Shown: positions 7,881-9,989 of the stretch, in pieces
Layout of the letters: each line of letters starts with the position of its first letter
How positions within the stretch are numbered: position 1 is the stretch's first letter
Source of the DNA: a virus
Strand: one strand, 5' to 3'
Length of the DNA stretch: 24,924 nucleotides
UHGV virus genome: UHGV-0876952
Position numbers and translations under genes: made by a program
The notes under the pieces: model-generated
The model's database searches: none
The model's input: only the letters and a program-made list of their open reading frames with translations
What the model was told of the DNA's origin: nothing

Positions 7881-8528
7881 TCACTTTAAAATGATACGAG
7901 ATAGTTCAGTAACTACAGATGAACCAAGACTATCAACGCTCGTTACCAGGGCATGATTTGAGTAAAATCTCTCCGGTGCGTCAGTCATGATGCCAATTGC
8001 CATCAAATCAATGTCAGTCTGCGTTTCAATTTGCTTCGCAACCGAACGCAAATGAGCGTCAAAACCTCTCCCAACAGCCCACGGCGCGCCATCACTCAGA
8101 ACAAGCATGATCTTCCTGTCCTCCATGCGACCGGAAAATAACGATGCAAGGCTGGCTATGCTTTCACCATCCACATTATTAAGAAGTGGGAATGTGTAGC
8201 CTACGCACCCCATACGTGAGCGAACTTCGCGAGAATTTACCTTTTCATTCCAATTTTTGATGATAGGTAGCATTAAAGATTCAAAGCGAGAGAACTCATA
8301 CTTGACAGCCTTAAGTTCTCCTGCCGCCATATGACTACCAAATGTAGTGAAGCCGGTGATAATGTTGGGAACATTTATTCGATCAAGGGCATCGGCGATG
8401 GTATATGCACTTGCAAGAGCCAATTGTATCGTTATACCACTCATTGAACCTGATAAATCAATCACTTGTTGAACACAGGCGTTAACGGCTTTAGATTCTT
8501 CTTTTTTACGTAAACACGCGATCATCAT
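7881..8528 (-). CDS. von Willebrand factor A (vWA) domain protein, CobT C-terminal-like
   Basis: 215-aa ORF with MIDAS motif DLSGSMSG near the N-terminus. Overlaps the upstream ORF by 23 nt with no RBS; may be the C-terminal part of a split CobT-like gene. Confidence 0.65.
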   Translation of the reverse strand: MMIACLRKKEESKAVNACVQQVIDLSGSMSGITIQLALASAYTIADALDRINVPNIITGFTTFGSHMAAGELKAVKYEFSRFESLMLPIIKNWNEKVNSREVRSRMGCVGYTFPLLNNVDGESIASLASLFSGRMEDRKIMLVLSDGAPWAVGRGFDAHLRSVAKQIETQTDIDLMAIGIMTDAPERFYSNHALVTSVDSLGSSVVTELSRIILK

Positions 8529-8955
8529 TCATTGCTAATCTGTAGATACTAGAACCATGAATGCGCCCCCGACGCTGGCCCGGTATAAACTGAACTCTGT
8601 TTCTGCTTGCTATTGCTCGCTCCAGGTCTTTTGCCAGCGTCGACGAAACACCTGACGAAAGATGCTTTTCAATATATTTGTCGAAGAGCTGGTTGCCTTC
8701 AGGAACGATGCGATAGCGGCTGATTGGATATCCTCCTAAATCAATATCGGAGAATGTTTTAATAAGCCGTTTGATATGGGCTTCTGCCTGATCAATCGAG
8801 CCGATGAAGTCGTATGAGCGATTGTATGGCCTGTATTCGCTTTTCGAGCTTTCTGTTAACTCGCTTTTAATCGTTTCGGATAGAGCATCTTCTGTCATGC
8901 CTCCGACTTCATCTTCTATGCTATCCAGCTCCTCTAAAGCCTCTTCCAGACTCAT
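8506..8955 (-). CDS. hypothetical acidic protein (possible middle segment of CobT-like gene)
   Basis: 149-aa ORF; ATG overlaps the upstream stop (ATGA); no RBS; its frame is open upstream to 9013 through an A-rich tract. Confidence 0.5.
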   Translation of the reverse strand: MSLEEALEELDSIEDEVGGMTEDALSETIKSELTESSKSEYRPYNRSYDFIGSIDQAEAHIKRLIKTFSDIDLGGYPISRYRIVPEGNQLFDKYIEKHLSSGVSSTLAKDLERAIASRNRVQFIPGQRRGRIHGSSIYRLAMNDDRVFT

Positions 8956-9989
8956 TTTTGACGGAGTTGGAATATCTGAAGAGCCGTCTTCTGTCGTTTT
9001 TCTTTTTCGTGGTCAGCGGTAAATGATTCTGACACCGCGTTATCAGAAGCATCAGAATCTGATACCTCTTTATCATTTTCTGTATCATCGAATATTGTTT
9101 CTGATGATTCAGAATTATCTGAATCATCACTGTCGTTATTATCATGTTTGTGCTTACTGTGTGATTCTGATTTGATAGATTTGTGATTATCTAACGCTGA
9201 GGGTGTCTCATGATCTTCGTTGTCTTCATTGTTTTCTCCAGAGGAATCCGTCTGGTCAGCGTCTGAAGGATCGGAAGTTTTTCCCGGAGCTGACTCCTTA
9301 CCTTTGCTTTCACTTTCAGTGTCTTTGAGGATCTTAGCTATGGTCGCAGCCACCTTTACACAATCCTCGGTGCAAGACATGTTACGCACGGCCACATCGA
9401 TACCATGTTCTTTTAATAATGAAATTGGTTTCTCAATGACAGGCCAATATTCATCCATGAAATCTACGAACGGTGCTTGGCCATCCCAGGCTCTTACAAC
9501 CGGACAGAGAAAGAAGTTTAGAAAAAGCGCGCGCTGATCTTTGCCACAATAAGCAATAGCCTCTGAAGCCTTTGGTTTAAAGACTTTTTCGATAATAAGG
9601 CGCTGAGTTGCCATCAGATTACGTCTTGTTCCGTTAAAGACCTGACCCATTTTTCGCTCGATGAACACGTCTTCTAAGGCATTCCATAGCGACCAGGAAG
9701 GAACGCGTCCTTTTTCTCTCATTTTGTTGGACACACGAATATCGGTAAACAAAATGTGAGCAACCTCATGATCGAGAAATCCGCGCACAGCATTCATCAA
9801 TGCCGGTGTTGCGTTATCCGGGATTGATGGGATGTTTACGAGAATTGGCTCTCCATCATCGTTATAGCGTACATAAGCGTCGTCCCCTCGTTCTGCAACA
9901 GGGATGTTTTTACCTGAAAGGAGAGCGACTACTCGTTTTACACTGTCACGGAAGTCCTGAACCTCTTTGATGGAACGTTTTTTAGACAT
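8952..9989 (-). CDS. CobT-like N-terminal domain protein with HExxH motif and acidic Ser/Asp-rich tail
   Basis: 345-aa ORF, RBS AAGGA before ATG 9989. Contains FLDHEVAHILF (HExxH) and a long low-complexity acidic tail (DSDDSDNSESSE...). Confidence 0.6.
   Translation of the reverse strand: MSKKRSIKEVQDFRDSVKRVVALLSGKNIPVAERGDDAYVRYNDDGEPILVNIPSIPDNATPALMNAVRGFLDHEVAHILFTDIRVSNKMREKGRVPSWSLWNALEDVFIERKMGQVFNGTRRNLMATQRLIIEKVFKPKASEAIAYCGKDQRALFLNFFLCPVVRAWDGQAPFVDFMDEYWPVIEKPISLLKEHGIDVAVRNMSCTEDCVKVAATIAKILKDTESESKGKESAPGKTSDPSDADQTDSSGENNEDNEDHETPSALDNHKSIKSESHSKHKHDNNDSDDSDNSESSETIFDDTENDKEVSDSDASDNAVSESFTADHEKEKRQKTALQIFQLRQK

What the first reader, a model, noticed from the sequence alone, without database searches (positions are those of the whole stretch)
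7881..9989. CobT/vWA-like partner of the MoxR-type ATPase is split into three overlapping ORFs at A-rich tracts and carries an HExxH motif
Downstream of the CobS/MoxR-like ATPase, three ORFs of 345, 149 and 215 aa together resemble one CobT-like protein (N-terminal domain, acidic linker, C-terminal vWA with MIDAS DLSGSMSG). Both junctions lack ribosome-binding sites and fall at homopolymeric A runs (about 8995-9009 and 8502-8508), and the middle frame stays open upstream into the acidic tail of the first ORF. This could be genuine gene fission, frameshift pseudogenisation, or a homopolymer sequencing error. The HEVAH motif in the first ORF could point to a metal-dependent hydrolase activity.
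Basis: partly seen in the sequence, partly recalled or inferred. Interest (0 to 1): 0.5.

Follow-up and report, generated by a model that had tools for sequence, protein, structure and literature searches.

The report
One cobT-like gene broken by indels
The three overlapping reading frames are pieces of one ordinary 702-residue CobT-related gene of an SSU5-like E. coli phage-plasmid, broken in this sequence only by two single-base indels (probably sequencing errors), while its HExxH motif is real and strictly conserved in the family.

Summary
The three minus-strand ORFs exist exactly as described: 8952-9989, 8506-8955 and 7881-8528. They are fragments of one gene. The window is an SSU5-like E. 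coli phage-plasmid. In the closest relative (99.8% identical) the same 2109 nt form one 702-aa CDS, "cobaltochelatase CobT-related protein".

The window differs there by only two 1-nt indels. One is a lost A in an A6 run (+ strand T-run 9003-9007). The other is an extra base at 8511, which lies 4 nt from the A-run, not in it. Undoing both gives a 702-aa ORF that differs from WP_049592668.1 at one residue.

Neither allele occurs in 33 fetched relatives, 219 E. coli plasmids, IMG/VR, GTDB representatives or JGI metagenomes. The three ORF products are absent from a 15-billion-protein collection. The window also carries private frameshifts in two other conserved genes. In all it has six private 1-nt indels, five of them deletions shortening base runs. 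Assembly error is therefore the most likely cause, and a very recent pseudogene the rival. Gene fission and recoding are effectively excluded.

The HEVAH motif is real. H74, E75, H78, E106, D107 and E111 are invariant in 80 diverse homologues. The modelled N-domain resembles M48 zincins. Canonical CobT has lost the motif.

The parts
7881..9989 (-). Whole cobT-related gene (2109 nt). It is intact as a 702-aa CDS in relatives and broken into three ORFs here.
   Evidence: After removing base 8511 and adding one T to the 9003-9007 run, it translates to 702 aa with one difference (S249A) from WP_049592668.1.
9003..9989 (-). Segment 1, intact residues 1-329. It holds the N-terminal M48-like domain (about residues 1-230) and most of the acidic, Ser/Asp/Asn-rich linker.
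   Evidence: Pfam CobT, E 2.5e-28. AlphaFold2 model, pLDDT 91.5. Linker composition: 28% D+E and 36% S+T+N.
9756..9770 (-). HEVAH (H74, E75, H78), the zincin HExxH motif.
   Evidence: Invariant in 80 homologues at 30-65% identity and in 144-145 of 146 sequences. Replaced by D-[SA]-[MIV]-A-L-[RK] in canonical CobT.
9657..9674 (-). E106-D107-x-x-x-E111. This is the candidate third zinc ligand / gluzincin Glu helix.
   Evidence: E106, D107 and E111 are invariant. E106 and E111 are also kept in canonical CobT (DAVEQARVE).
9003..9007 (-). Frameshift site 1. The coding-strand run is A5 where all relatives have A6 (a 1-nt deletion). ORF1 then reads 16 wrong-frame codons to a stop at 8952-8954.
   Evidence: 30 of 30 relatives covering the site carry the extra base. 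None of 219 E. coli plasmids matches the window allele exactly. The allele is absent from IMG/VR, GTDB representatives and JGI metagenomes.
8512..9002 (-). Segment 2, intact residues 330-493: end of the linker, the helical pre-vWA region and most of the shaft-equivalent segment. ORF2 covers residues 346-493.
   Evidence: tblastn frame map. Aligned to Brucella CobT residues 345-404. ORF bookkeeping.
8481..8604 (-). Segment homologous to the Brucella CobT 'shaft' (Q373-R413), which inserts into the CobS ring pore. It contains the 8511 insertion.
   Evidence: phmmer alignment to 9uka_G, with the MIDAS register checked against D422/S424/S426 given in bioRxiv 10.64898/2026.07.21.739949.
8511..8511 (-). 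Frameshift site 2. A 1-nt insertion (coding strand TTT[A]CGT), not in a homopolymer. It creates the TAA that ends ORF2.
   Evidence: Absent in 33 of 33 relatives. 0 of 218 E. coli plasmids by allele-specific megablast, with a positive control. 0 in IMG/VR against 27 contigs with the intact allele. 0 in GTDB representatives and JGI metagenomes.
7881..8510 (-). Segment 3, intact residues 494-702: the vWA domain with its MIDAS. ORF3 adds six wrong-frame residues (MMIACL) at its head.
   Evidence: Pfam CobT_C, E 9.7e-83. PDB CobT chains 21vt_A and 9uka_G, E 1e-15 and 6e-13. ORF bookkeeping.
8445..8459 (-). MIDAS motif D511-L-S513-G-S515 (DxSxS).
   Evidence: Read directly from the sequence. Nearly invariant in alignment A1. 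Aligns to Brucella D422/S424/S426.
6550..7785 (-). Partner CobS-like / MoxR-type AAA+ ATPase (411 aa), next gene downstream in the same orientation.
   Evidence: Pfam AAA_5, E 2.1e-15. phrog_249, E 2e-106. TIGR01650 CobS scores 84.8 bits, far below its 558.55 cut-off.

Best explanation
The three ORFs are one gene. It is the cobT-related gene of an SSU5-like E. coli phage-plasmid, which normally encodes a single 702-aa protein.

In this sequence two single-base indels found nowhere else throw residues 330-493 into another frame. One is A6 to A5 at 9003-9007. The other is an extra base at 8511. The most likely cause is base-calling or assembly error, because the window carries the same kind of private one-base lesion in two other conserved genes.

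The intact protein is inferred to be the adaptor subunit of the adjacent CobS-like AAA+ ATPase. This rests on homology to Brucella CobT. It has an N-terminal M48-like zincin domain, an acidic disordered linker, a shaft segment that would enter the ATPase ring pore, and a C-terminal vWA/MIDAS domain that would hold a client.

Unlike canonical CobT, this clade keeps an intact HExxH...E site. I therefore infer that it can bind zinc and may cleave or process a client. It probably does not act as a cobalt chelatase subunit, since E. coli has no CobN (established knowledge).
For: Shown:
- The closest relative (99.8% identical) has one 2109-nt CDS at the same place and differs in it only by the two indels plus three substitutions.
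- Repairing the two indels gives 702 aa with one residue different from WP_049592668.1.
- Of the 17 fetched relatives that cover the gene end to end, 16 encode a single 702-aa ORF. The exception (NZ_CP027358.1) has its own different C5-to-C4 frameshift, which PGAP flags as 'frameshifted'.
- The 90%-identity cluster of the intact protein has 3307 member sequences. All 120 close homologues carry both Pfam domains in one chain, and nearly all of the 150 representatives at 50% identity are 630-860 aa.
- Both window alleles are absent everywhere searched, and the three ORF products are not in a 15-billion-protein collection.
- The second break lies inside the shaft-homologous segment.
- The starts of ORF2 and ORF3 lack a Shine-Dalgarno sequence.

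Error signature: over about 22 kb covered by at least 3 relatives, the window has 6 private 1-nt indels against 24 private substitutions. Five of the six are one-base deletions that shorten a base run (four runs of 5-7 bases and one CC pair). Five of the six fall in coding sequence and frameshift three otherwise 98-100% identical genes.

Protein function:
- HExxH, E106, D107 and E111 are invariant in 80 diverse homologues.
- Canonical CobT_N is reported to have an M48C-like fold but lacks the motif.
Confidence: 0.7

Rival explanations
1. Both indels are real mutations. This particular plasmid copy carries a recently inactivated cobT-related pseudogene, and perhaps two other decaying genes.
For: Frameshifted copies do exist in public records (NZ_CP027358.1). 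The 8511 insertion is not in a homopolymer. Once the first lesion had inactivated the gene, a second could accumulate neutrally. The window also has 24 private substitutions, so it is a distinct lineage.
Against: Three frameshifted genes in 25 kb of an otherwise 98-100% conserved backbone is unusual for a transmissible phage-plasmid. Five of the six private indels are one-base deletions that shorten a base run. Neither allele and none of the ORF products recurs in any collection searched.
Confidence: 0.25
2. This is genuine gene fission: three separately translated, functional subunits (N-domain plus linker, middle piece, vWA domain).
For: ORF1's stop and ORF2's start overlap as ATGA. Split cobT genes exist in some viruses: in HHTV-2 the vWA domain is a separate ORF (PMC8651126).
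Against: No relative shows this arrangement. ORF2 and ORF3 lack ribosome-binding sites. Sixteen residues of the intact protein (330-345) are lost, and 16 + 1 + 6 wrong-frame residues are added. The second cut falls within the conserved DDRVFRxKxE/shaft segment.
Confidence: 0.03
3. This is programmed recoding: a -1 shift at the A-run followed by a +1 shift near the TAA, rebuilding the full-length protein. Precedents are dnaX and the chlD frameshift described by Antonov (2020).
For: The region around site 1 is A-rich. A stop codon (ACG TAA A) sits at site 2. A precedent for frameshifting in chelatase D-subunit genes is cited in PMC8651126.
Against: All relatives read straight through in one frame, so no recoding signal is under selection. 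The window's codons at site 1 (GAA AAA GAA) give no in-phase X XXY YYZ heptamer. At site 2 neither UUU-to-UUA nor ACG-to-CGU re-pairs well (read directly from the sequence). Two efficient shifts in series would be unprecedented.
Confidence: 0.02

Closest known systems
'Cobaltochelatase CobT-related protein' of SSU5-like phage-plasmids (WP_049592668.1 and the cluster of P0001; phrog_1576; annotated 'porphyrin biosynthesis protein' in SSU5 and pHCM2-type records)
   Same: After repair of the two indels, 701 of 702 residues are identical to WP_049592668.1. Position, orientation and neighbours are the same: dnaE, a CobS-like ATPase, a small hypothetical gene, an HTH regulator and an integrase. The match to phrog_1576 is full length, E 7.5e-301.
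   Different: Only the two private 1-nt indels, which split the reading frame in this window.
Canonical aerobic cobaltochelatase subunit CobT (Brucella melitensis, PDB 9uka/21vt; TIGR01651; bioRxiv 10.64898/2026.07.21.739949)
   Same: Same architecture: N-domain (PF06213, M48C-like fold), about 90-120 residues of acidic disordered linker, shaft, and vWA with a DxSxS MIDAS. The gene is paired with a clade-7 AAA+ ATPase gene.
   Different: It scores 70.8 bits against the 759-bit equivalog cut-off. Its N-domain keeps HExxH where canonical CobT has D-[SA]-[MIV]-A-L-[RK]. It is carried by a phage-plasmid whose host lacks CobN and the aerobic B12 pathway (established knowledge). No cobN is annotated in the corresponding ~25-kb region of the relatives.
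M48-family gluzincin metallopeptidases (Ste24/ZMPSTE24, HtpX, BepA) and minigluzincins
   Different: No Pfam M48 match. It is soluble and fused to a linker plus a vWA domain. The structural similarity is weak, and no activity has been shown.
MoxR/CbbQ-type AAA+ ATPase with a vWA adaptor (for example NorQ/NorD)
   Same: Two-gene AAA+ plus vWA/MIDAS module. The alignment A1 profile weakly matches NorD vWA chains, E 5e-5.
   Different: NorD-type adaptors lack the CobT N-domain. The ATPase here is closer to CobS than to NorQ.

Membership tests
Canonical cobaltochelatase CobT (TIGR01651 equivalog) | Whole-protein score above the curated equivalog cut-off | tested here: not met
   70.8 bits against a cut-off of 759.05. 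PGAP accordingly names the relatives 'CobT-related'.
Canonical cobaltochelatase CobT (TIGR01651 equivalog) | Architecture: CobT N-domain, acidic linker, shaft, and vWA with a DxSxS MIDAS | tested here: met
   PF06213 and PF11775. Alignment to 9uka_G through the shaft and MIDAS. Linker composition. Met only for the repaired single frame.
Canonical cobaltochelatase CobT (TIGR01651 equivalog) | Works with CobS and CobN in aerobic B12 synthesis | tested here: inconclusive
   A CobS-like gene is adjacent, but it scores 84.8 against a cut-off of 558.55. No cobN is annotated in the corresponding ~25-kb region of four relatives. Host genomes were not examined. That E. coli lacks CobN is established knowledge, not tested here.
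Canonical cobaltochelatase CobT (TIGR01651 equivalog) | Degenerate (pseudo-peptidase) N-domain motif RG-x-[AG]-D-[SA]-[MIV]-A-L-[RK] | tested here: not met
   The window has RGFLDHEVAH, with an intact HExxH.
Viral/plasmid CobT-related clade (phrog_1576) | Full-length match to the family profile | tested here: met
   E 7.5e-301, residues 5-702 on profile positions 2-729 of 729 (intact relative).
Viral/plasmid CobT-related clade (phrog_1576) | Invariant residues G70, D73, H74, E75, H78, E106, D107, E111 and the MIDAS DxSGSM | tested here: met
   All are present in the window's ORF1 and ORF3.
Viral/plasmid CobT-related clade (phrog_1576) | Single polypeptide of about 630-860 aa | tested here: not met
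   The window as read gives three ORFs. The feature is met after reversing the two private indels.
M48-like gluzincin metallopeptidase | HExxH plus a downstream Glu ligand, conserved across the family | tested here: met
   H74, E75, H78, E106 and E111 are invariant in 80 sequences at 30-65% identity.
M48-like gluzincin metallopeptidase | Zincin fold similarity to solved M48 peptidases | tested here: inconclusive
M48-like gluzincin metallopeptidase | Sequence membership (Pfam Peptidase_M48) | tested here: not met
   No M48 family at E<=0.1. Only phrog_459 'peptidase' matches residues 72-128, at E 6.6e-8.
M48-like gluzincin metallopeptidase | Zinc binding and peptide-bond hydrolysis | not testable with these tools
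   This needs biochemistry.
Programmed ribosomal frameshift gene (dnaX / chlD type) | Frameshift arrangement and slippery site conserved among relatives | tested here: not met
   All relatives are in a single frame. There is no in-phase heptamer in the window (read directly from the sequence).

The most novel reading that the evidence does not exclude
The viral/plasmid CobT-related clade is not a chelatase subunit. It is a working zinc metallopeptidase tethered through a shaft and vWA/MIDAS domain to a CobS-like AAA+ ring. That would make it an ATP-driven client-processing machine of tailed phages and phage-plasmids, with the canonical cobaltochelatase CobT as a derivative carrying a dead peptidase domain.
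Probability: 0.3. Interest if true: 0.5.

Novelty: not a real feature. Interest (0 to 1): 0.12.

Why it matters
As a split gene it does not matter. It is a lesion private to this one sequence, in a gene that is intact and already annotated in hundreds of near-identical plasmids. Its main value is as a flag that this sequence has indel problems in at least three genes.

A side result is modestly useful. The widespread viral cobST-type adaptor keeps an invariant HExxH...E zincin site that true CobT has lost. This argues against the routine 'porphyrin/cobalamin biosynthesis' annotation of these phage genes and gives a testable handle on their unknown role.

Tried and rejected
- Allele-specific megablast worked for site 8511 and, less cleanly, for 23128: the intact-allele control gave 37 further places beyond the 8511 segment, of which the only rows shown map to the 23128 segment. 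It was uninformative for the T-rich 9003-9007 and 13624 segments, where even the control allele gave no hit, presumably because of low-complexity masking. I replaced it with word-11 blastn and with direct inspection of 30 fetched loci.
- Neither a single-sequence nor a profile search of the PDB aligned the HExxH region to a solved CobT N-domain, and no separate CobT_N chain appeared in the copy searched. I therefore recovered canonical N-terminal sequences with a homology search seeded on the Brucella segment. It returned only fragments of at most 223 aa, but these cover the motif.
- I considered and rejected programmed -1/+1 frameshifting (no conserved signal, relatives are in frame) and functional three-way fission (no ribosome-binding sites, the cut lies inside the shaft, no relative shares the layout).
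- Searches for the source record or any second carrier of either allele found nothing: INPHARED, PLSDB, RefSeq E. coli, IMG/VR, GTDB representatives, JGI metagenomes and an exact protein look-up.
- The literature search for CobT plus HExxH found nothing relevant.
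Full report
**Observation.** The window has three overlapping minus-strand ORFs at exactly the stated coordinates: 8952-9989 (345 aa), 8506-8955 (149 aa) and 7881-8528 (215 aa). Pfam places the CobT N-terminal family (PF06213, E 2.5e-28) on the first and CobT_C/vWA (PF11775, E 9.7e-83) on the third. It finds nothing on the middle ORF. The neighbouring 411-aa gene (6550-7785, minus strand) is an AAA_5 ATPase. 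HEVAH lies at 9756-9770 and DLSGS at 8445-8459. Only the first ATG has a Shine-Dalgarno-like AAGGA. ORF1 and ORF3 share a frame and ORF2 is offset by one.

**What the locus is.** The 2.4 kb around the finding matches 219 E. coli plasmids of about 95-120 kb at 95-99.8% identity. It also matches SSU5-type phages: Escherichia phage Cyrano at 99.3%, and SSU5 and Klebsiella relatives at about 67-69%. The window is therefore part of an SSU5-like phage-plasmid.
- In the closest record (NZ_JBWDPU010000001.1, 99.8%) the same 2109 nt form one CDS, WP_049592668.1, 'cobaltochelatase CobT-related protein'.
- A base-by-base comparison of 7700-10100 shows two indels plus four substitutions, three of them inside the CDS. 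The indels are an extra T at 8511 (+ strand) and a T missing from the 9003-9007 run (T5 against T6).
- Reversing the two indels gives a 702-aa ORF with a single difference (S249A) from WP_049592668.1.
- In bookkeeping terms, ORF1 is intact residues 1-329 plus 16 wrong-frame residues. ORF2 is residues 346-493 plus one residue. ORF3 is six wrong-frame residues plus 494-702. Residues 330-345 are encoded by none of the three.

**Are the indels shared with anything?** No.
- Among 33 fetched relatives, all 33 lack the 8511 insertion, and all 30 that cover the site have the longer run at 9003-9007. Of the 17 that cover the gene end to end, 16 encode a single 702-aa ORF. The exception, NZ_CP027358.1, has a different C5-to-C4 frameshift, which PGAP labels 'frameshifted'.
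- An allele-specific megablast with the window alleles found nothing in 20,395 E. coli records. The control with the intact alleles hit 218 plasmids. That control showed the test was valid for 8511 but masked for the 9003-9007 segment.
- A word-11 search of 8970-9040 then showed no exact match in any of 219 plasmids. The best hits all carry one extra base.
- Exact-pattern scans found neither allele in IMG/VR, against 27 contigs with the intact 8511 allele. They also found neither in one genome per GTDB species or in JGI metagenome contigs.
- None of the three ORF products exists as an exact sequence in a 15-billion-protein collection.
- The 90%-identity cluster of the intact protein holds 3307 member sequences. 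All 120 close homologues carry both Pfam domains on one chain, and nearly all 150 representatives at 50% identity are 630-860 aa.

**Error or mutation?** I compared the whole window with relatives.
- Three genes are frameshifted relative to orthologues that are otherwise 98-100% identical. They are the cobT-related gene, a 420-aa hypothetical gene (two 1-nt deletions at 13624/13625) and a 352-aa hypothetical gene (T5 to T4 at 23128).
- Over about 22 kb covered by at least three relatives, the window has 6 private 1-nt indels against 24 private substitutions. Five of the six are one-base deletions that shorten a base run, four in runs of 5-7 bases and one in a CC pair. Five of the six are in coding sequence.
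- This is the usual signature of uncorrected long-read or flow-chemistry assembly error, so I rate error at about 0.7.
- A genuine, very recent pseudogene (about 0.25) cannot be excluded without reads. The 8511 insertion is not a homopolymer change.

**Why not fission or recoding?**
- No relative shows the three-gene layout.
- The internal starts have no ribosome-binding site.
- The second break lies inside a conserved block, LxRLxxGDDRVFRxKxE. This block aligns to Brucella CobT residues about 390-407. The MIDAS register of that alignment (D422/S424/S426) agrees with the published structure.
- That places the break within the 'shaft' fragment Q373-R413, which inserts into the CobS ring (bioRxiv 10.64898/2026.07.21.739949). 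A cut there is not a domain boundary.
- Because all relatives are in frame, no recoding signal is under selection. The window's codons at either site offer no in-phase slippery heptamer (read directly from the sequence).

**The HExxH motif.** It is real and far from chance.
- In 146 N-domains from representatives at 50% identity, H74, E75 and H78 are each conserved in 144-145 sequences.
- In a curated alignment of 80 sequences at 30-65% identity, the invariant columns are G35, P54, G70, D73, H74, E75, H78, E106, D107, E111, G120 and R166.
- An AlphaFold2 model of residues 1-240 (pLDDT 91.5) has a helix, a three-stranded sheet and then a helical bundle. This is the topology described for crystallised CobT_N, which its authors liken to the M48C peptidase domain.
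- Canonical CobT N-domains read RG-x-[AG]-D-[SA]-[MIV]-A-L-[RK]...DAVEQARVE at the aligned positions. They keep G70, D73, E106 and E111 but have lost both histidines and the catalytic glutamate.

**Membership.**
- The protein is not a CobT equivalog: 70.8 bits against a cut-off of 759. The ATPase is not a CobS equivalog: 84.8 bits against 558.55.
- The protein belongs full-length to phrog_1576, a family of unknown function. Its motif region also touches phrog_459, 'peptidase'.
- A published survey notes that cobST pairs are widespread in tailed viruses, that cyanophage cobT is often annotated as a peptidase, and that one archaeal virus has a genuinely split cobT (PMC8651126).
- The library search found no paper linking CobT with HExxH.

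**Mechanism (inferred).** By homology with Brucella CobST, the intact protein would dock on the CobS-like AAA+ ring through its N-domain, thread its shaft into the pore and present a vWA/MIDAS face to a client. Two things point away from a chelatase role. The clade keeps a complete zincin site, and the enterobacterial hosts lack CobN and the aerobic B12 pathway (established knowledge). A zinc-dependent processing or remodelling role on an unknown client is more plausible. None of this has been shown experimentally.

**Verdict.** It is one known gene carrying two lesions private to this sequence, most likely errors. The HExxH motif is a genuine, invariant feature of the viral CobT-related clade and the only mildly interesting residue of the finding.

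Noticed in passing
window 12666-13923 (+), lesion at 13624-13625: A 420-aa hypothetical gene with no Pfam match is frameshifted by two adjacent private 1-nt deletions (CC to C and A7 to A6). It is intact in pLAU-OXA1 and two other relatives.
   Followed up: partly
window 22651-23705 (+), lesion at 23128-23132: A 352-aa hypothetical gene with no Pfam match is frameshifted by a private T5-to-T4 deletion. The window allele was absent from all E. coli records. The intact allele is present in at least two records (rows H138 and H139). About 37 further places in that control are not attributed to a segment.
   Followed up: partly
window 15093-15097: A further private 1-nt homopolymer deletion (T5 to T4) in non-coding DNA; 10 of 10 relatives have the longer run. 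It adds to the error-like pattern.
   Followed up: partly
L034 (Escherichia phage Cyrano OV696614.1) 15138-18577: The intact orthologues are annotated 'dimethylbenzimidazole phosphoribosyltransferase' and 'cobalamin synthetase'. Those are the functions of the unrelated Salmonella/E. coli CobT and CobS, so this is an annotation error caused by name collision. SSU5-type records call them 'porphyrin biosynthesis protein'.
   Followed up: no
L003 (NZ_CP027358.1), equivalent to window 8566: An independent C5-to-C4 frameshift in the same gene of another public plasmid, flagged 'frameshifted' by PGAP. This shows that such lesions or errors recur in this gene in public records.
   Followed up: yes
window 6550-7785 (-), N-terminal ~140 aa: The CobS-like ATPase has an N-terminal extension of about 140 residues that is absent from canonical CobS (TIGR01650 aligns only from residue 141). 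The extension contains a CxxC...H...C stretch (CKWCGKSFHYFKSHVANGNCEG) that looks like a small zinc-binding element.
   Followed up: no
window 14119-14669 (-): A cluster of four tRNA genes: Ser-TGA, Thr-TGT, Tyr-GTA and Asn-GTT. Relatives differ in whether tRNA-Tyr is present: pLAU-OXA1 and Cyrano lack it, while HCP5S3_I4 and DG341-1 have it.
   Followed up: partly
window 2863-6369 (-), especially 4174-4375: The DnaE-like polymerase gene is mosaic. A short stretch is much more diverged from pLAU-OXA1 than its flanks (paired compensating indels in the alignment; 93% protein identity overall), which suggests recombination between lineages. In HCP5S3_I4 the same gene is truncated by an IS100 insertion.
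   Followed up: no
window 1-120 and 24904-24924: The first 120 and the last 21 bases of the window did not align to any of the best whole-window relatives, so these are variable or mosaic junctions at the window edges.
   Followed up: no
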